A stretch of 64,000 bases of DNA, taken from assembly GCA_000004985.1 (NCBI GenBank), contig GG738878.1, one strand, 5' to 3'. Under the pieces are notes generated by a model that did no database searches, was not told the origin of the DNA, and saw only the letters and a list, made by a program, of their open reading frames with translations. The translations under genes were made by a program, and so were the position numbers. This DNA comes from Naegleria gruberi. Its lineage: Eukaryota. This document shows, piece after piece, positions 32,887 through 46,430 of this stretch (position 1 is the stretch's first letter; each line of letters starts with the position of its first letter).

Positions 32887-34851
32887 TTATTCCAATGTAT
32901 CATTATTAGAAACCAATTGTCTTTGTACCAATTCCTTATATCTACTACCATTAATCATGAGTTGATCGTGTGTACCCTCCTCCACAACCATACCTCCATC
33001 AATTACATAGATGTTATTGGCATTCTTAATTGTAGAGAGACGATGAGCAATTACCAAAACAGTTCTTCCTTCCATTAATCTTTGAAGAGCTTCCTGAACT
33101 TGATGTTCAGCATTGGAATCAAGGGCAGAGGTGGCTTCGTCCAAAATAAGAATCCTTGCTTGTTTCAATATGGCTCTAGCAATGGCAATTCTCTGCTTTT
33201 GTCCACCACTCAATTTAATACCTCTTTCACCGACAGGTGTATCATAACCTTCCGAGAATCCCATAATAAACTCGTGAGCATTGGCCTTAGTTGCAGCATC
33301 AATAATTTCTTCATTGGTTGGAGGAGTGCTTGATTCCCAACCATAACAAATATTCTCTCTAATACTGCAAGAGAACAGAGATGGTTCCTGTTGCACAACA
33401 GCAATATTCTTTCTCAATTCTTTTGGACTGAGTTCTCTAATTGACTTTCCATCAACTAAAATATCACCCTCATTAGGATCATAGAAACGTTGTAATAATG
33501 AGCTAATGGTTGATTTACCATTTCCACTCTTTCCAACCAGAGCATTTACTGTGGAAGGTAACATTTCAATATTAACACCCTTCAAAACAGTTTGTTCAGG
33601 TCGAGATGGATAGGCAAATTGCACATTTCTAAACTCTACATGACCAGAAACTGGTTGATTAGATTCATCCATATCATAATCCATAGTTTGTGCTGATTTT
33701 CCTTGTCTCTTTTCAATTACTGGCACTTGTTTCAATAATTCGTGAACTCTTGCAGTAGCACCAACAGCCTTAACTAATTCGAATAGAACAGAAGAAACAA
33801 CTCCTAAACTAGTGGCCACATAGAATGTATAAATAATAAAGCTGGTCAATAATCCAATTGTAATTTCCTTTTTCAAAACCAATGAACCTCCATACCACAA
33901 AACCAGAATAATACTAGCTGTTGCACAGAAGGTCATTGTACCATTGAAAAATCCACTGCTCACTGAAAGTTTTCTTGCCAATTTCAAAGTGTCATCAATT
34001 GAAACATTGTACTGAGAAACGTGAGTATATTCCTTTGAAAAACTTCTTACAGTTCTCAAATTTGAAAATGATTCCTCAGCAACTTCACTAGATTTAGCCA
34101 ACGCATCTTGAACTTGTTTTGATAATCTCTTTACAATTTTACCATAAATAATTGCACCGAATATAATTGGTGGAATTACTGACATGGTTACCAAAGTTAA
34201 TTTCCAACTTGTGTAAAATAAAAAGAAAACTCCACCAATTGCCTGTAAAACATTTCTCATAAAAAGAAATAGATTTGATGTTACAGCAGCTTCAAGAGAC
34301 TTCGTATCAGAACTCAATCTATTAAGTAATTCACCTGTTTTAGTGGAATCGAAAAAGCTCACATCCTGAATAATCATTGTCTCAAATAATTCCTTTCTCA
34401 ATCCAGCCACAACTCTCTCACCTGCAAATGAAAAGCAAAAGTGTTTAATTGCTGTTGTAATGGCAATTCCAAAAACTGCCAATAACAAGTAAAGAGCTGC
34501 AGTGTTCAAATATTTTTCTCCCTTCTCATCGCCATCTTCAGATGTCAATGCTTGTGGAATGACATCAACAAGGTTTGTCAAGAATAATGGTAAAACAAGT
34601 CCTAAAACTGTACTGATCAACATGGCAACCGTTCCTACCAATAGCAAATGCCATTGAGTGAATCCTAAACCGAGTAACCATTTTAATTGTGAAAGTGAAG
34701 ATCCTCGGAAGAAATTACTAATAAATTTAAGTGGTGATCTTGATGTTGGAATTGTTGGTGATGAAGAGTTATCTTTTTCATGGAGGTTGATATTTTCATT
34801 TGTTCCTTCATTGTTATTATCATCGTCTTCGGAGAGGTGTTGTGGAGGCAT
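32887..34851 (-). CDS. ABC transporter, subfamily B half transporter (TMD-NBD; mitochondrial ABCB10/ATM1/TAP-like)
   Basis: 654-aa single ORF. A six-helix TMD follows an ~70-aa N-terminal extension. The NBD carries Walker A (GKSGNGKST), the signature LSGGQKQRIAIARAIL, Walker B (ILILDEATSALD) and the H-loop (VIAHRLST). Confidence 0.85.
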   Translation of the reverse strand: MPPQHLSEDDDNNNEGTNENINLHEKDNSSSPTIPTSRSPLKFISNFFRGSSLSQLKWLLGLGFTQWHLLLVGTVAMLISTVLGLVLPLFLTNLVDVIPQALTSEDGDEKGEKYLNTAALYLLLAVFGIAITTAIKHFCFSFAGERVVAGLRKELFETMIIQDVSFFDSTKTGELLNRLSSDTKSLEAAVTSNLFLFMRNVLQAIGGVFFLFYTSWKLTLVTMSVIPPIIFGAIIYGKIVKRLSKQVQDALAKSSEVAEESFSNLRTVRSFSKEYTHVSQYNVSIDDTLKLARKLSVSSGFFNGTMTFCATASIILVLWYGGSLVLKKEITIGLLTSFIIYTFYVATSLGVVSSVLFELVKAVGATARVHELLKQVPVIEKRQGKSAQTMDYDMDESNQPVSGHVEFRNVQFAYPSRPEQTVLKGVNIEMLPSTVNALVGKSGNGKSTISSLLQRFYDPNEGDILVDGKSIRELSPKELRKNIAVVQQEPSLFSCSIRENICYGWESSTPPTNEEIIDAATKANAHEFIMGFSEGYDTPVGERGIKLSGGQKQRIAIARAILKQARILILDEATSALDSNAEHQVQEALQRLMEGRTVLVIAHRLSTIKNANNIYVIDGGMVVEEGTHDQLMINGSRYKELVQRQLVSNNDTLE

Positions 34852-40961: not shown

Positions 40962-42767
40962 ATGCTTTCTCTAGATTCACCCAAACATCAGCAACAACAC
41001 CATGATGATATCTATCTGCAGGATTTCAACAATGATGGCGAACATTATTCGAATAATAGAAATCATCATCAACAACAATTTTATTACAATTCACCTCCCA
41101 TTACAACAACAAATATTCTCAACGAGTCGACAAGTAGTGTTGCCTCTAATTTAATAACATCATCACCCGATCACAATAATTTAAATGATGGAATAAGTGG
41201 CAGATTTTCCAACAAATCAAATTCCTCCTCTCAACAAGCTTTATTTTCCTCATCACCCCAAAACAATAAGAATAGAAAAAACAATTCAAAACAACAATCA
41301 ACGAAAGAATTTAAGGATCGTTTACTAAATTTAAAAGCAGCAGAATCCAAAGATCAACCCAGTGAAATTTATAGGAATCTCACAAAGCGAGAGAGGTTTA
41401 ATATAACGTGTTGTGGAGTGGTTGTGGCAGGTGTGGTGGTGATTGTCTTGACAATACTGACTGTATTTGTAGTTTATTATTTGGAGGTGTATCGGATTGA
41501 TTCGAATAGGAGGATGGGTTATGAGAAAGTGGAACTTGCTGAGAGAAATATTGGTAAACAACTTACAAAAACATTTAATTCATTGTTGGTAATGAGGGAT
41601 CAAGCGCAGAATTGGAATTATTCAATTAGTTTGGAAAAGTTTAATGGACTTTCGGCTAGATTAGCTTGGGGACATCATGAAGTTTACAATTTCGAATATG
41701 CAATTGGAGAAAATGCATCACTGGATTATGTCTATCCTCCAGTGGATGCTGTTTATGGATTACAAATGGGAGCTGACTCATCAACTCACAAATCAGCCAT
41801 GAATGAAGCCATCCAAAAAAACGAAACTACAATTTTTGGACCTATTTCACTAATTGAGGGTGGAGTAGCTGTCATTGCTCAACATCCAATATTTTATTTG
41901 AATGGAAGTTTTTTTGGATTTGCTGTCGAGCTCTGTAGAGTTGACCAATTATTCAATTCGATTAATTTTACAGGACTTTTACAAGGTTATCAATATCAAT
42001 TATTTGATTATTATAGAAATTCTGTGTTTTTACAAAGTTTGGATGGACATTCAGAGTTTGAACCAACGATTGAAAGAAATGTTTCAATCATTTCTGATAG
42101 TATTTATGCGAATATTTCAGTTTATAATTGTAGATGGAAGATTATTCTTCGACCTGTCAATGGATGGGACTCTAATTCAATTTTGTGGCTTGAGATATTG
42201 ATTGCCTTACTGATTATTTTTTTACCGTCCATAACTATTGGTGTTTTGGCATCAGTTGTTGTTAATTCATGTAATTGGTTAGGTAATCATGGAAAGGTGG
42301 CGGATGTTTTGGATAAAGTCAGAAATCAACACGTAAAAAAAGAGCAGAAAAAGGCCATGCTTAAGGAGGATTGGGAAGCATGTTGTGAGTGTTTTAATGA
42401 GAGAACTGACAAGATTCAAAGAATTGTTAATCATTTACCAATGGCTGCAATTTCAGCCTCTCTGGATGGAAAAATTTATTCTGTGAATGCGGCCTTGACG
42501 AAATATTTTGGCTATGATTCGAATAGAATCCTAGAAATTAAGCTCAATGATATGTTTGTGGATTTTAATATTAAGGAAATATATAATAATCGAAAGGGAA
42601 AAGGCCATTTCACACACTCGGCAACAATCATGTCAACAAATCAAGAAGCACACCAAGTAATAATTAATATTTTATTTAGCGAGAATTCTAAGGAAGTATC
42701 AGTTCTGATTTTCATTCCTTGCTTGGACAAGGGGGAAAAAAGTACAAGTTTGGAAACAGTTGATTAA
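40962..42767 (+). CDS. sensor-like membrane protein: TM1 - ~230-aa extracytoplasmic CHASE-like ligand-binding domain - TM2 - cytoplasmic PAS-like domain; no catalytic output domain
   Basis: 601 aa. TM1 is ITCCGVVVAGVVVIVLTILTVFVVYYL. The extracellular segment is ..WGHHEVYNFEYAIGENASLDYVYPPVDAVYGLQMGADSS..TIFGPISLIEGGVAVIAQHPIFYLNGSFFGFAVELCRVDQLF... TM2 is ILWLEILIALLIIFLPSITIGVLASVVV. The PAS-like segment is ..RIVNHLPMAAISASLDGKIYSVNAALTKYFGYDSNRILEIKLNDMFVD... The CHASE assignment rests on this architecture and is not a verified match. Confidence 0.55.
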   Translation: MLSLDSPKHQQQHHDDIYLQDFNNDGEHYSNNRNHHQQQFYYNSPPITTTNILNESTSSVASNLITSSPDHNNLNDGISGRFSNKSNSSSQQALFSSSPQNNKNRKNNSKQQSTKEFKDRLLNLKAAESKDQPSEIYRNLTKRERFNITCCGVVVAGVVVIVLTILTVFVVYYLEVYRIDSNRRMGYEKVELAERNIGKQLTKTFNSLLVMRDQAQNWNYSISLEKFNGLSARLAWGHHEVYNFEYAIGENASLDYVYPPVDAVYGLQMGADSSTHKSAMNEAIQKNETTIFGPISLIEGGVAVIAQHPIFYLNGSFFGFAVELCRVDQLFNSINFTGLLQGYQYQLFDYYRNSVFLQSLDGHSEFEPTIERNVSIISDSIYANISVYNCRWKIILRPVNGWDSNSILWLEILIALLIIFLPSITIGVLASVVVNSCNWLGNHGKVADVLDKVRNQHVKKEQKKAMLKEDWEACCECFNERTDKIQRIVNHLPMAAISASLDGKIYSVNAALTKYFGYDSNRILEIKLNDMFVDFNIKEIYNNRKGKGHFTHSATIMSTNQEAHQVIINILFSENSKEVSVLIFIPCLDKGEKSTSLETVD

Positions 42768-42784
42768 TTCAATTACAAACTTAT

Positions 42785-45700
42785 TTACCACCAATCAGAA
42801 CCAACATTGGAAACTTCTTCAGAGACTGAATTAAAGTTCTTTGTGACTGCCTTGCTTGCTGATGCAAATAAACCTTCGTTGAGTTCATTTTCCAAATCAC
42901 GATGGAAACGATCAGTGATTGGTCTTGTAACAAATTTGAGGTGGAAGGAATAAGTATCCTTTGGCATAACTTTGACCTTTTCTTGTGCCTCCTTTTGGAG
43001 AGTTGCAACTGGGTCAGGTAATAATGAGAACAAAATCTTTTCAAAATTCAAACAGAATTTTTCAAAAGCTTGCTTATTCTCTTTCGTCTTGGAGAACAAC
43101 ATTCCTTTCCACTTGAGTTCCTTTCTGTATTTAGTAATGACCAAGTAGAGAGTTTCAGCAATAACTTTGCAGTGTGGATGACTCTTATATTCGTTAATGT
43201 TTGTTTCAAAGTCCTTCAAGATGACGGATGTATATCTTCCAATTTCATTCTTATAGCTAATTTCCAAGAGCATGTAATAATTAAGGGACCAAATGATAGG
43301 ATGGACATAGTTAACAACAGCACCTCTTTCTTCAGTAAAGAGTGCAGTCTTTAACCATTCAGTTGGTTGTTTCAAAAGTTTCAACTTTCTTTCGAGTGGA
43401 AGTGAAAATATGATAGTATTGAACAATCTACCAAAGTTTGAGCTTACCAAAAATTGGTTGGAAGTCAAATTGTTTTGTGAATCGATAACCAAAAAGTTTT
43501 GAGAATTACCACCTGTTGAAGGGATAAAGAATAAGGAATCGCAAACTGTTGTTGGTAATTCCTTATATTTGGCAGTGCCTAAGGTTGTTTTAGAGAGAGC
43601 TCCACTCTTTTGAGGATTGAACTTGAGGGCATGTGAAGTGTATACTCTGCTTGGGGCCTTTTTCAAGAGTGTTTTTTGAATGTAATCAGTACACTTTCTA
43701 GCCAAGTTACTTTCACCTGGGGTTGAGAGTAAGAACATTTCTTTTAGTTCGGTTTGAGGAATGACATGACCCTTGCATGGCACAAAAAGTCTAGTCTTGA
43801 ACTTTTCAGCATCTACATTACCAATGAAAATTACACCACCTTCTGTTGGCTTTGTATTCTCCTCTTTCCAAGTTGGTCCTCTCAATAATTGTAACAAATC
43901 AGCAGAATCCATATATTGATCATCTCCTTGATTGAACATTGGATGAACAATGAGTTTACCTTCAAATCCACCATTTACCCATGTGATAGGATGTCTATCC
44001 TTTGTTCCTCTCACATAGGATATTCCACCATATCGCTCAATATCCCAAATGTTAACACTAAGTCCCAATCCTTCAAATATCTTGATGTAACATAAAAACT
44101 CAGGTCTTTGAATTTGCTTATCAGTAAAGAATAATACATCGAATGGATTTTGACCTGGTACAGTAGGGAAATAATTTGGAGTCAAACGGATCATACTTTC
44201 AAGGTTTTCAATTTTCTTTCCTCTAAGATGAAGACTAACTTTGAATGGAATAATTTCAAAGAATTGTGCAATATCATTAATTTCAACTTGGAAACTTCTA
44301 GAGTAGGTCATACCAGCTTGAATAAAAGGTATATCTTCTTCAATTCCATTTACTCCATTCAAACCAGGCTCATTATGAACAATAAATCTAGGATCAAATA
44401 CAATATTAAGTTTCAAGTGTTGTCTCTCGCCGACAGTAGAACCATAATTCATCATGGAAATATTCTTAAATGTAACAGTAACAGTGCCTCTCTCTGTTCT
44501 TCCCAACTGTGGTGGAGCAAAAATAGCCTCAAATTGAATTGGGTATTGAATAATGTAGTCATTCTTAAGGAAGGCACCTGGGAATGGTGATGTAAGAAGG
44601 GTTGCAGATGATTGGACTGGGAGAATTGACTTGTAAGGTCCAACACCCATAGGTTCTGGTGTATCAGAGATGGTACCAAAGAATTGGAATGGTATTGTGA
44701 AAATTCCTCCAGGAAGAATAGCTTGATCCAAAACATAAAAAGTATCTGCAGAGAGGAAAGATTGTTGACCTTGAGTACTAGGGAAGGAAATTACTGTTCC
44801 TACTGGCAAAATCATACCACCTTGGTTGGATAAAGTGACAGCAGATACAAATACAGTTTCACCAGGTTCAAAAACTCCATCATCTTCAGTTGCAAAGAGT
44901 TGGAAAGAAGTAACAAACAAATCAAATACAGATGTACCCTGATCCAAAATGTTATTAGTTATTGGATCATAGACACGGAAGAGTAAACTTCCAGGCATGC
45001 CATCTTGACCGTCTTGACCTCCCATACCCCTAAAATTTTTTGAAATTGAATAATGTTTGTTAATAGTTGATACTTACTGTCTTCCTGATTGACCATTTTG
45101 ACCTGATTGACCACTTCTACCATCTGAACCTCTTTCTCCAGAGCTAAGACTTTCACTATCAACAGGTTGCCCTGCAGAACCACCACTACCACCACTGCCT
45201 CCACTGCCACCACTACCGCCATGACCACCACTACCACCACATCCTGGATCACCTCCGTAACCTCTTCTACCAGCCCTACATTCAGCTTGAACAAATTTTA
45301 AAAGGGCTGGATTATGTGTTTCAATAACTACACTTCCACCACTTCCTCCATTTCCTCCACTATTGGATTTAAAATTAATTGAGTCTATAAGAAACTTACT
45401 TGGCTCCATTTCCACCACTAATAATTGTTGAATAAATTATATGCAACTTTCCAATACTTACTCTGCACCATCTCCACCACTATTAAAATAATAAAATTTA
45501 ATTGAACTAGCTCACAAATACTTACTTTCCACCACTATTTTCAAAAAATTAATATTCCAAAAATGAAAACATTTCCAAAACTTACTTTCCACCACTAAAT
45601 GCATTTCATTAGTAAACTTTGATTTCTAAATACTTACTCTCCACCACTAGATACATTTAAATTCACAACTAATTCTAGTAATACTTACTCTCCACCATCC

Positions 45701-46430
45701 CCTCCATTACAACCTTTATTACCAGATTTACCACTACCTCCACTACCACCGCTTCCACCACTTCCACCATTGCCACCACTTCCTCCACTACCACCATGAC
45801 CACCACTAAATTTTGAATGAATTATTATCATGCATGAATAGATTACCAGTACTTACTCGCCACCATCTCCTCCATTTGCCAAAAAGACCAAAACCTTTCC
45901 AGCTCCATCATCCAAACACAATGTTTCATTAGCAGTACCACTCACAACAATGGACTTGTGGTTAACTCCTTCAATTGTCACTTTAATATTACCAGCGCTC
46001 TGTGCACTAGTTCCACTTGTACCACTTCATGAAATAATGATCAATAAAAAGGGTGTCCCAATTACTGCTACTACTTACTGCTCACCATGTGTTGCTCTTC
46101 CTCCGCTGGAATATATTAGTATTTCAAACAAATCATTGCTACTTACTGACTACCATTGGTACCATTACCACCTCTCTGACCACTAGAACCCCAAGAACCA
46201 GAATTTCCACTCTATTTCATCATGATGATAAAAAAACAATGATATCCTATGGATGATACTTACACTTCCCCAACTTCCTGAATGCCCACTATTAATAATA
46301 AGAAAAATAATGATCATCATCAAATAGTATAAACATTTTCATGTTATCCAATAAAAACCCACCTAAAACCCGAAACACCCGAAATTCCAGGTTTCCCAGA
46401 AACGTCTACTATAATTGAATTTTTGAGCAT
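42785..46430 (-). CDS. collagen-like (Gly-X-Y) repeat protein with large C-terminal globular domain; 13 exons: 46363..46430, 46264..46288, 46147..46211, 46079..46105, 45857..46024, 45689..45805, 45638..45646, 45586..45594, 45526..45534, 45462..45479, 45400..45417, 45078..45360, 42785..45029
   Basis: Every junction has a GTAAGT donor (the first is GTGGGT) and an (A/T)AG acceptor. Only one reading phase stays open through all exons (phase 2 at the micro-exons). The reconstructed N-terminus is MLKNSIIVDVS-GKP-GIS-GVS-GFS-GHS-GSW-GSS-GNS-GSW-GSS-GQR-GGN-GTN-GSH-GGR... followed by ..NIKVTIEGVNHKSIVVSGTANETLCLDDGAGKVLVFLANGGDGG. Then come DGGHGGSGGSGGNGGSGGSGGSGGSGKSGNKGCNGGDGGE, the micro-exons DGG / DGG / NGG / NGGDGA / DGGNGA, then NGGNGGSGGSVVIETHNPALLKFVQAECRAGRRGYGGDPGCGGSGG..GSDGRSGQSGQNGQSGRQ|GMGGQDGQDGMPG, then a 735-aa non-repetitive domain. 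Confidence 0.65.

What the first reader, a model, noticed from the sequence alone, without database searches (positions are those of the whole stretch)
42785..46430. Collagen-like protein without a signal peptide, with duplicated non-collagenous inserts and a 735-aa uncharacterised C-terminal domain
The reconstructed protein starts MLKNSIIVDVS, with no hydrophobic leader, then goes straight into GXY triplets. Two non-repetitive inserts are flanked by GGDGG (NIKVTIEGVNHKSIVVSGTANETLCLDDGAGKVLVFLANGGDGG and SVVIETHNPALLKFVQAECRAGRRGYGGDPGCGG). The large globular C-terminus (SLLFRVYDPITNN...) does not look like a known collagen NC1 or C1q domain to me. A collagen-like protein that may be intracellular in a unicellular eukaryote is unusual, and the C-terminal domain could be a novel trimerisation or enzymatic module.
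Basis: partly seen in the sequence, partly recalled or inferred. Interest (0 to 1): 0.55.

Follow-up and report, generated by a model that had tools for sequence, protein, structure and literature searches.

The report
Glycine-triplet DUF7932 protein of Naegleria
This is a real 13-exon Naegleria gruberi gene for a signal-peptide-less protein whose "collagen-like" part is a conserved glycine-triplet domain, probably a folded polyproline-II helix bundle rather than collagen, attached to the multi-domain body of a large, widespread, completely uncharacterised family (Pfam DUF7932).

Summary
It has no signal peptide or transmembrane segment.

- **Organism:** the window is Naegleria gruberi.
- **C-terminus:** it is not one orphan domain. 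It contains Pfam DUF7932 (E 4e-14), and a profile search finds 1119 cluster representatives. Named members come from Naegleria, a sponge, a nemertean, Glomeromycota and a giant virus; others lie in Bdellovibrionota and Endozoicomonas MAGs.
- **Fold:** a model of a collinear N. lovaniensis homologue (pLDDT 77) shows two Ig-like beta-sandwiches, an alpha/beta domain and a helical domain.
- **Glycine region:** it is conserved position by position. There are six tracts of nearly fixed length, GXY at the edges and GGX inside, with about 3% proline. Variable turns and two conserved, unrelated connectors separate them. The model gives the tracts high confidence as non-alpha, non-beta structure.

I read this as an intramolecular polyproline-II bundle, not a collagen trimer. 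Eukaryotic relatives carry FYVE, PX, PH, C2, SAM or TPR domains, whereas the Bdellovibrionota homologues carry signal peptides. Function is unknown; I favour a non-catalytic cytosolic scaffold or recognition module.

The parts
42785..46430 (-). Whole gene: 13 exons, 12 introns, 1019 codons plus TAA stop. Exons on the minus strand: 46430-46363, 46288-46264, 46211-46147, 46105-46079, 46024-45857, 45805-45689, 45646-45638, 45594-45586, 45534-45526, 45479-45462, 45417-45400, 45359-45078, 45029-42785.
   Evidence: In-frame splicing with canonical sites. Introns are AT-rich relative to exons. The product is collinear with homologues over its full length. The syntenic orthologue L001 splices the same way.
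44990..46430 (-). Glycine-triplet module, residues 1-285, including all 12 introns. It starts with an N-terminal beta-strand. Six Gly tracts follow: A1 12-36, A2 54-72, B 113-134, C 161-186, D 208-232 and E 261-285. Three variable turns separate the tract pairs.
   Evidence: Triplet runs. Family-wide Gly pattern is GXY in A and E and GGX in B, C and D, with Pro 3.3%. Tract lengths are nearly invariant while turns range from 1 to 70 aa. In the homologue model the tracts have pLDDT 80-90 with DSSP coil.
45877..45990 (-). Connector ('insert') 1, residues 74-111 (NIKVTIEGVNHKSIVVSGTANETLCLDDGAGKVLVFLA), between tracts A2 and B.
   Evidence: Four beta-strands in the homologue model (E75-116 of P0006). 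Family length is about 43 aa, IQR 40-48. It is not similar to insert 2.
45257..45334 (-). Connector ('insert') 2, residues 187-212 (SVVIETHNPALLKFVQAECRAGRRGY), between tracts C and D.
   Evidence: A beta-strand plus a short helix in the model (E185-189, H192-197 of P0006). Length is 21 aa in the family, IQR 21-23. L197 and the position of F200 are conserved.
45400..45646 (-). Microexon cluster: three 9-nt exons (45646-45638, 45594-45586, 45534-45526) and two 18-nt exons (45479-45462, 45417-45400). Together they encode residues about 157-178, most of tract C.
   Evidence: Each is flanked by ag|TGGTGG...NA|gtaagt. The orthologue L001 has an 18, 9, 9, 18, 18-nt cluster at the same place. Tract C is 26 residues in nearly all family members, so all five are needed. 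There is no exon-plus-intron tandem repeat.
44531..44989 (-). First Ig-like beta-sandwich, residues 286-438. Pfam DUF7932 covers residues 309-434 (44543-44920).
   Evidence: Pfam DUF7932: E 3.7e-14, 53.7 bits against a cut-off of 27. The motifs DGxxEPGE, NxGG, YP and NIS are conserved. The model shows beta strands only. Fold matches are to pilin, macroglobulin and transglutaminase-barrel sandwiches.
44165..44530 (-). Second Ig-like beta-sandwich, residues 439-560.
   Evidence: Strands 442-581 of the homologue model, pLDDT above 90. Foldseek alignments of about 280 columns to two-barrel regions of transglutaminases.
43439..44164 (-). Alpha/beta domain, residues 561-802, with alternating strand-helix order. 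Conserved residues are D569, L571, T574, E582, W600, D601, Y605, S609, K630, G675, P709, P731 and G756.
   Evidence: Secondary structure of the model, mapped through the alignment. Conservation. No Pfam or PDB sequence match.
42788..43438 (-). C-terminal alpha-helical domain, residues 803-1019. The last 40 or so residues have low confidence.
   Evidence: Helices 904-1066 of the homologue model, mapped. K820 and E861 are conserved.

Best explanation
The locus is a genuine, intron-rich Naegleria gruberi gene for a cytosolic member of the DUF7932 family.

**Structure.** The glycine-triplet region is not a collagen rod interrupted by inserts. It is one conserved folded domain with six fixed-length Gly tracts of 19-26 residues each. 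These most likely form three antiparallel polyproline-II hairpins (A1/A2, B/C, D/E) packed side by side. The inner tracts are GGX because they are packed on more than one side. The outer tracts are GXY.

The N-terminal strand and the two 'inserts' are the conserved connectors at one end of the bundle. The three turns at the other end vary in length. This rigid module sits on two Ig-like sandwiches, an alpha/beta domain and a helical domain.

**What is shown.** The gene model, family membership, the conservation pattern, the domain order, and the absence of a leader.

**What is inferred.**
- The polyproline-II bundle geometry.
- Cytosolic, membrane-peripheral localisation.
- Function. I favour a non-catalytic scaffold or recognition module. 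On this view the stiff bundle presents its variable distal loops, as phage gp38 adhesin tips do, and the C-terminal domains bind partners.
For: **Gene model:**

**Organism:**, a 100% match to an N. gruberi protein.

**Family:**
- Pfam DUF7932, E 4e-14.
- 1119 representatives at E<=1e-3 and 267 at E<=1e-30.
- Full-length collinearity with N. lovaniensis P0006 (38%) and the N. gruberi paralogue XP_002679508 (33%).
- Named members from a sponge, a nemertean and Glomeromycota.
- A Terrestrivirus member.
- Bacterial members.

**Gly module:**
- Position-specific Gly conservation.
- Invariant tract lengths against variable turns.
- In the model, pLDDT alternates between 80-90 in the tracts and below 55 in the turns, with no helix or strand assigned.
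- The literature states that GGX repeats give multilayer PPII packing, whereas GXY gives collagen (bioRxiv 10.1101/2023.11.25.568672; PMC13243192).

**Cytosolic location:**
- No leader or transmembrane segment.
- FYVE, PX, PH, C2, SAM and TPR fusions in relatives.
- Only 7 of 97 near-full-length representatives have an N-terminal hydrophobic leader, followed within a few to about 20 residues by the conserved 'I-x-I-D-x-SG' start. The Bdellovibrionota homologues read directly have such leaders too.
Against: - No coordinates could be inspected, so PPII dihedrals and helix packing are not verified.
The window's own C-terminal model was poor, with pLDDT 53.
- Obg-fold similarity is not detectable by sequence.
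- Function is pure inference: no characterised relative, no informative gene neighbourhood, and each fusion partner is seen in one protein only.
- Conserved D, E, S, K, W and Y residues in the alpha/beta domain could form an active site.
- No transcript evidence supports the microexons.
Confidence: 0.55

Rival explanations
1. A true collagen-like protein. The GXY tracts of three chains wind into a collagen triple helix, the inserts are kinks, and the C-terminal region acts as the trimerisation (NC1-like) domain.
For: - Gly occupies every third residue over long stretches.
- Pfam Collagen scores marginally above its cut-off for residues 12-69 (29.7 vs 27.2 bits) and for residues 259-293 of P0006.
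- An AF2 monomer run cannot show a trimer.
Against: - Pro is 6 of 295 residues in the window protein and 3.3% of tract residues in the family.
- Three tracts conserve a second Gly per triplet (0.57-0.79), which collagen does not require.
- Tracts are only 19-26 residues long, with fixed lengths and variable loops between them.
- AF2 places them confidently in a monomer.
- There is no C1q or NC1 Pfam match.
- There is no secretory leader, and relatives carry cytosolic fusion partners.
Confidence: 0.1
2. The Gly-rich region is an intrinsically disordered low-complexity linker, for example for condensate formation. Its periodicity would be a by-product of replication slippage in GGN repeats.
For: - The composition is 35% Gly with many GGS/GGD/GGN units.
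- TRF finds 9- and 27-nt repeats at 45730-45808.
- The PDB sequence search returns only artificial GGS linkers.
Against: - The Gly register, tract lengths and both connectors are conserved across Heterolobosea, animals, fungi, bacteria and a giant virus.
- Slippage would make tract lengths variable, yet the length IQR is zero for tracts A2, B, C and E.
- pLDDT is 80-90 in the tracts.
Confidence: 0.07
3. The protein is an enzyme. The conserved alpha/beta domain (residues 561-802) carries an unrecognised active site, and the Gly bundle and Ig-like domains serve only as a stalk or for targeting.
For: - The strand-helix alternation is Rossmann-like.
- D569, T574, E582, W600, D601, Y605, S609 and K630 are conserved at 70-90%.
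- A bacterial homologue lies in a same-strand gene run that includes an AAA+ protein and a 1673-aa Laminin_G_3 protein.
Against: - No Pfam, NCBIfam or PDB sequence match at permissive thresholds.
- No conserved Cys or His and no P-loop.
- No residue in this domain is invariant.
- Fold searches returned only the sandwiches, so this domain was never really tested on its own.
Confidence: 0.2

Closest known systems
Pfam DUF7932 family (UniProt 'DUF7932 domain-containing protein', e.g. Naegleria lovaniensis XP_044550565, Oopsacas minuta KAI6661803, Terrestrivirus A0A3G4ZNF8)
   Same: - Significant Pfam match.
- Same order of Gly module, two sandwiches, alpha/beta domain and helical domain.
- Collinear over the full length.
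   Different: - The Pfam model covers only about 125 of 1019 residues.
- No member has a described function, and no paper mentions the family.
- The window protein is the minimal form, without the N- or C-terminal extensions seen in some relatives (PH + SAM, FYVE, C2, PX, TPR).
Glycine-rich polyproline-II helical bundle domains (snow-flea antifreeze protein 3BOG, phage S16 gp38 tip 6F45, ALK/LTK glycine-rich domain, Obg N-terminal domain)
   Same: - GGX/GXX tripeptide tracts of similar length joined by turns.
- Very low Pro content.
- Predicted ordered non-alpha, non-beta structure.
- As in gp38, conserved Gly motifs alternate with variable loops (bioRxiv 10.1101/2023.11.25.568672; PMC13243192).
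   Different: - No detectable sequence relationship.
- Tracts are about twice as long (19-26 residues, against roughly 6-11 in sfAFP and gp38).
- The geometry here is inferred, not seen.
- No known PPII-bundle protein appeared in the fold-search top lists.
- Obg Pfam and BLAST tests were negative.
Collagen triple-helix repeat proteins (PF01391; bacterial Scl1/Scl2, C1q-type proteins)
   Same: - Gly at every third residue.
- Borderline Pfam Collagen match.
- Weak NCBIfam hits to Scl1 and Scl2, far below their cut-offs.
   Different: - Pro-poor.
- GGX in the inner tracts.
- Short tracts of fixed length.
- No leader, LPXTG motif, C1q or NC1 domain.
- Relatives have cytosolic domain partners.
Tandem Ig-like beta-sandwiches of transglutaminases (barrels 1-2 of TG2, factor XIII and protein 4.2), macroglobulin MG domains and Gram-positive pilins
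   Different: - Sequence identity is only 5-13%.
- The match is to the non-catalytic sandwiches only.
- There is no transglutaminase Cys-His-Asp core and no thioester or isopeptide motif.

Membership tests
Pfam DUF7932 family | Match to PF25560 above its gathering score | tested here: met
   53.7 bits against a cut-off of 27, E 3.7e-14, residues 309-434, profile positions 2-130 of 130.
Pfam DUF7932 family | Full-length architecture shared with other members (Gly module, sandwiches, alpha/beta domain, helical domain) | tested here: met
   Collinear alignment with P0006, P0053 and P0005. Identity is 33-55% over about 1000 columns with P0185 and the L001 product. The profile search gave 267 hits at E<=1e-30.
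Collagen triple-helix repeat proteins | Uninterrupted Gly-X-Y repeats recognised by PF01391 | tested here: met
   Runs of 15, 25, 12 and 12 triplets. PF01391 scores 29.7 bits against a cut-off of 27.2, which is marginal.
Collagen triple-helix repeat proteins | X/Y positions rich in Pro/Hyp, or otherwise of collagen-type composition | tested here: not met
   Pro is 6 of 295 residues here and 3.3% of tract residues in the family. The X or Y position is conserved as Gly in three tracts.
Collagen triple-helix repeat proteins | Three chains forming a triple helix, nucleated by a trimerisation domain | not testable with these tools
   Only monomer AF2 predictions were possible. There is no C1q or NC1 Pfam match.
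Collagen triple-helix repeat proteins | Entry into the secretory pathway (signal peptide) | tested here: not met
   No hydrophobic leader. An in-frame stop lies upstream. The N-terminus is a conserved structural strand.
[quoted passage not shown] | Several GGX/GXX tracts of matched length joined by turns | tested here: met
   Six tracts of 19-26 residues with near-invariant lengths, separated by variable turns. Gly occupies 1 of 3 positions in the outer tracts and 2 of 3 in the inner tracts.
[quoted passage not shown] | PPII backbone geometry and side-by-side helix packing | tested here: inconclusive
   The homologue model gives pLDDT 80-90 with DSSP coil in the tracts and low confidence in the turns. 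Coordinates could not be inspected. No PPII-bundle structure appears in the top 50-60 fold matches.
Obg fold (GTP1_OBG, PF01018) | Sequence match to the Obg N-terminal domain | tested here: not met
   No PF01018 hit at E<=10 for seven family modules.
Transglutaminases | Papain-like catalytic core with a Cys-His-Asp triad | tested here: not met
   Structural matches cover about 270-360 aligned columns at 7-10% identity. I read these as the tandem beta-barrels, but the aligned target region was not reported. No Cys or His is conserved in the family, and there is no Pfam transglutaminase hit.

The most novel reading that the evidence does not exclude
The N-terminal 285 residues may define a new, ancient class of glycine-rich polyproline-II helical bundle. 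It would have six unusually long helices (19-26 residues) arranged as three hairpins, capped by a small beta unit. It would be the first such domain found as a widespread intracellular eukaryotic module, and it is shared with Bdellovibrionota, Endozoicomonas and giant viruses. The variable distal loops would act as a recognition surface, as in phage gp38.
Probability: 0.4. Interest if true: 0.7.

Novelty: new member of a known kind. Interest (0 to 1): 0.5.

Why it matters
Only a handful of natural polyproline-II bundle domains are known, and protein designers and structural biologists actively study them. A large cross-kingdom family carrying what looks like the longest such bundle, with no published study, is a good target for structure determination.

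Localisation work in Naegleria would also be informative. It shows that "collagen-like" hits in protist genomes can hide a different fold.

For genome annotation, the gene is a warning case. It has twelve tiny introns and five 9-18-nt exons, and no matching protein turned up in the databases searched.

Tried and rejected
- **Dictyostelid origin.** I first assumed this from composition and intron style. It is wrong: a neighbouring ORF is 100% identical to an N. gruberi protein.
- **Obg-fold homology of insert 2.** Suggested by 'GG-S-V-V-I-E-T..L-L-K-F'. It is not supported by BLASTP or Pfam.
- **Word-indexed homologue searches.** They returned almost nothing for this family.
- **Model of the window's C-terminus from five sequences.** It was poor, pLDDT 53.
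- **Library limits.** afdb50 was unavailable.
- **Profile against PDB sequences.** Nothing found.
- **Permissive Pfam scan of 19 C-terminal fragments.** No recurrent family besides DUF7932.
- **Back-translated family pattern against prokaryotic genomes.** Nothing found. A DGIFEPGE pattern scan then found bacterial members.
- **Paralogue within the window.** None.
- **Tandem exon-plus-intron duplication as the source of the microexons.** No such repeat exists.
- **Look-ups of the N. gruberi record for existing annotation.** All failed.
Full report
**1. Gene model**

The finding lies on the minus strand. Reading 46430 to 42785 and removing twelve short introns gives an open 3060-nt coding sequence.
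- The introns are 40-74 nt, and all have GT(A/G)(A/G)GT..AG ends.
- Intron GC is 0.19-0.33 against 0.39 for the exons.
- An in-frame stop lies 25 codons upstream of the ATG with no other ATG between.
- All twelve introns sit in the first 1.4 kb. The last exon, 2245 nt, encodes everything after the glycine region.
- Five very small exons (9, 9, 9, 18 and 18 nt; 45646-45400) lie in a row.

A metagenomic orthologue, L001, supports the model. Its product is 55% identical and the neighbouring CHASE-like gene is syntenic. It splices in frame in the same way and has an 18, 9, 9, 18, 18-nt cluster at the same place. No transcript data were available, so the model rests on splice signals, frame and homology.

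**2. Organism**

I first took the window for a dictyostelid. That was wrong. The ORF at 32890-34851 is 100% identical to a Naegleria gruberi ABC transporter.

The other genes examined are ordinary eukaryotic nuclear genes: calpain, an EF-hand mitochondrial carrier, a WD40 protein and an NmrA-like protein. None is functionally linked to the finding. No paralogue lies in the window.

N. gruberi does have at least one divergent paralogue elsewhere, XP_002679508. It is 1001 aa with the same architecture and 33% identity.

The window's own protein was not returned by any database search at high identity. It therefore seems to be missing from the protein sets searched. I could not check the genome record directly.

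**3. Signal peptide**

The N-terminus has no hydrophobic leader, and no 19-residue window exceeds a Kyte-Doolittle mean of 1.3. The first residues (SIIVDVSGKPG) are a conserved element of the family:
- The orthologue starts MAQIQNTLVIDNSGEPG.
- N. lovaniensis P0006 starts MDLRVVIDKSGRKG.
- In the structural model this segment is a beta-strand.

**4. The C-terminal part is not an orphan**

Pfam finds DUF7932 at residues 309-434 (E 3.7e-14).

A HMMER profile of the C-terminal 735 aa was run against 1.84 billion cluster representatives. It found 1119 proteins at E<=1e-3 and 267 at E<=1e-30.

Named members come from:
- N. lovaniensis, N. gruberi, the sponge Oopsacas minuta, the nemertean Lineus longissimus, the glomeromycete Acaulospora colombiana and an MMETSP protist;
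- the giant virus Terrestrivirus.

A DNA pattern for DGIFEPGE recovered full-length bacterial homologues in Bdellovibrionota and Endozoicomonas MAGs.

No member has a described function, and no paper in the library mentions DUF7932.

**5. Architecture**

The spliced window protein could not be submitted for structure prediction. The window's C-terminal exon modelled with five sequences was poor, pLDDT 53.

I therefore modelled N. lovaniensis P0006 with a 102-sequence alignment. P0006 is collinear with the window protein from residue 1 to the end. The model has mean pLDDT 77 and pTM 0.67.

Mapped onto the window protein, the domains are:

| Residues | Domain |
|---|---|
| 1-285 | Glycine module |
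| 286-438 | Beta-sandwich containing DUF7932 |
| 439-560 | Second beta-sandwich |
| 561-802 | Alpha/beta domain with alternating strands and helices |
| 803-~985 | Helical domain |

Profile searches against PDB sequences and permissive Pfam scans add nothing.

Conserved non-Gly residues are DGxxEPGE, NxGG, YP and NIS in the first sandwich. In the alpha/beta domain they are D569, T574, E582, W600, D601, Y605, S609 and K630. No Cys or His is conserved.

**6. The glycine region**

The periodicity is real: in-phase Gly runs of 15, 25, 12 and 12 triplets. The details do not fit collagen.

*Conserved blocks.* Across 86 aligned family members the Gly positions fall into six blocks, in window numbering: A1 12-36, A2 54-72, B 113-134, C 161-186, D 208-232 and E 261-285.

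*Gly pattern.* The outer blocks have Gly at one position in three. Frequencies are about 0.71-0.77 at the first position and 0.01-0.19 at the other two. The inner blocks B, C and D conserve Gly at two positions in three (0.81-0.87 and 0.57-0.79). Proline is 3.3% of tract residues.

*Lengths.* Block lengths are almost invariant: medians are 19, 22, 26, 22 and 25 for A2 to E, with an IQR of zero for A2, B, C and E. The three segments between the pairs A1/A2, B/C and D/E vary from 1 to 70 residues. The two 'inserts' keep their lengths, about 43 and 21 residues.

*Model confidence.* pLDDT alternates in step with this pattern. It is 80-90 in the tracts, which DSSP calls neither helix nor strand, and below 55 in the variable segments. 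The N-terminal strand, insert 1 (four strands) and insert 2 (a strand plus a short helix) are the only regular elements.

*The inserts.* They are not related to each other: local score 16 against a shuffle mean of 15.9 +/- 3.3.

*Literature.* Published work on glycine-rich polyproline-II bundles states that one Gly in three permits the collagen triple helix. Two in three, or all Gly, permits layers or honeycombs of PPII helices, as in snow-flea antifreeze protein, phage S16 gp38, ALK/LTK and Obg (bioRxiv 10.1101/2023.11.25.568672; PMC13243192).

*Reading.* The simplest interpretation is an intramolecular bundle of three PPII hairpins. The beta elements lie at one end and the variable loops at the other. 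This is an inference: I could not inspect coordinates, and no known PPII-bundle structure appeared in the fold-search top lists. A specific link to the Obg fold was tested and not found.

*Microexons.* They encode residues about 157-178, most of tract C. Tract C is 26 residues in nearly every member, which argues that all five small exons are included.

**7. Location and function**

Among the 30 longest family members, single proteins carry FYVE, C2, PX, PH plus SAM, or TPR domains around the same core. These are cytosolic, often lipid-binding modules.

By contrast, the Bdellovibrionota homologues have N-terminal signal peptides. Seven of 97 near-full-length representatives also have a hydrophobic leader, followed within a few to about 20 residues by the conserved I-x-I-D-x-SG start. 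One Endozoicomonas homologue has no leader and is followed by a RING-plus-Sel1 gene.

The eukaryotic proteins, including this one, are therefore most likely cytosolic.

Bacterial neighbourhoods were not informative. One has an AAA+ gene and a 1673-aa Laminin_G_3 protein nearby; another has only unannotated genes.

I therefore commit only to a low-confidence functional model. A rigid glycine bundle presents variable distal loops, as the gp38 tip does. It is mounted on two Ig-like domains and a C-terminal alpha/beta-helical unit that binds partners, possibly at endomembranes. A catalytic role for the alpha/beta domain cannot be excluded.

**8. Verdict**

- There is no leader, and the protein is probably intracellular.
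- It is not a collagen in any sense beyond periodicity.
- The inserts are not duplicated.
- The C-terminus belongs to a catalogued but uncharacterised family.

The gene is a new member of a known, function-unknown kind. The interest lies in the family's conserved glycine module, which may be an undescribed and unusually large polyproline-II bundle. It also lies in the gene's odd structure.

Noticed in passing
window 45400-45646 (minus strand): Three consecutive 9-nt exons (TGGTGGAGA, TGGTGGAAA, TGGTGGAAA) are followed by two 18-nt exons, each flanked by ag|TGG...NA|gtaagt. A matching 18, 9, 9, 18, 18-nt cluster occurs in the orthologous metagenome locus L001 at 1571-1810.
   Followed up: partly
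window 45030-46362 (minus strand): All 12 introns of the gene lie in the 1.4-kb glycine-coding 5' part, and none lies in the 2.2-kb last exon. Eleven of the 12 are phase 2 and split a codon just before a Gly codon (NA|gt...ag|T/C/G GG). Many other genes in the window read as long uninterrupted ORFs, so this intron density is locally exceptional.
   Followed up: partly
window 42785-46430: No protein identical or nearly identical to this gene's product was returned from the protein collections, although a neighbouring N. gruberi protein was found at 100%. The gene may be unannotated or mis-modelled in the N. gruberi gene set.
   Followed up: partly
window 32890-34851 (minus strand): After Naegleria and Acrasis, many of the closest full-length relatives of this N. 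gruberi ABC half-transporter are myxobacterial MsbA-like proteins, at 46-49% identity over about 90% of the length. This suggests a possible bacterial origin.
   Followed up: no
window 40962-42767 (+) and L001 4486-6675: The convergent neighbour is a 601-aa protein with a transmembrane segment and a weak CHASE-domain match. It ends 17 bp from the stop of the finding's gene. The same neighbour is syntenic in the metagenomic orthologue locus.
   Followed up: partly
L042 2083-5442, L032 2304-5009, L057 661-4383, L044 234-3230: Bacterial full-length homologues with the same glycine module occur in Bdellovibrionota MAGs, where they have signal peptides. One also occurs in Endozoicomonas without a leader, followed by a gene encoding a RING-like finger plus Sel1 repeats.
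   Followed up: partly
BFVD entry A0A3G4ZNF8 (Terrestrivirus sp.): A giant virus encodes a full-length DUF7932 family member of 1137 aa. It aligns structurally over the whole model (Foldseek E 2.4e-32).
   Followed up: no
L092 1044-16590: In one bacterial metagenome contig the DUF7932 homologue lies in a same-strand run of genes. These include a ClpB-like AAA+ protein, two unannotated proteins and a 1673-aa Laminin_G_3 protein, so it may be a secreted multi-protein system.
   Followed up: no
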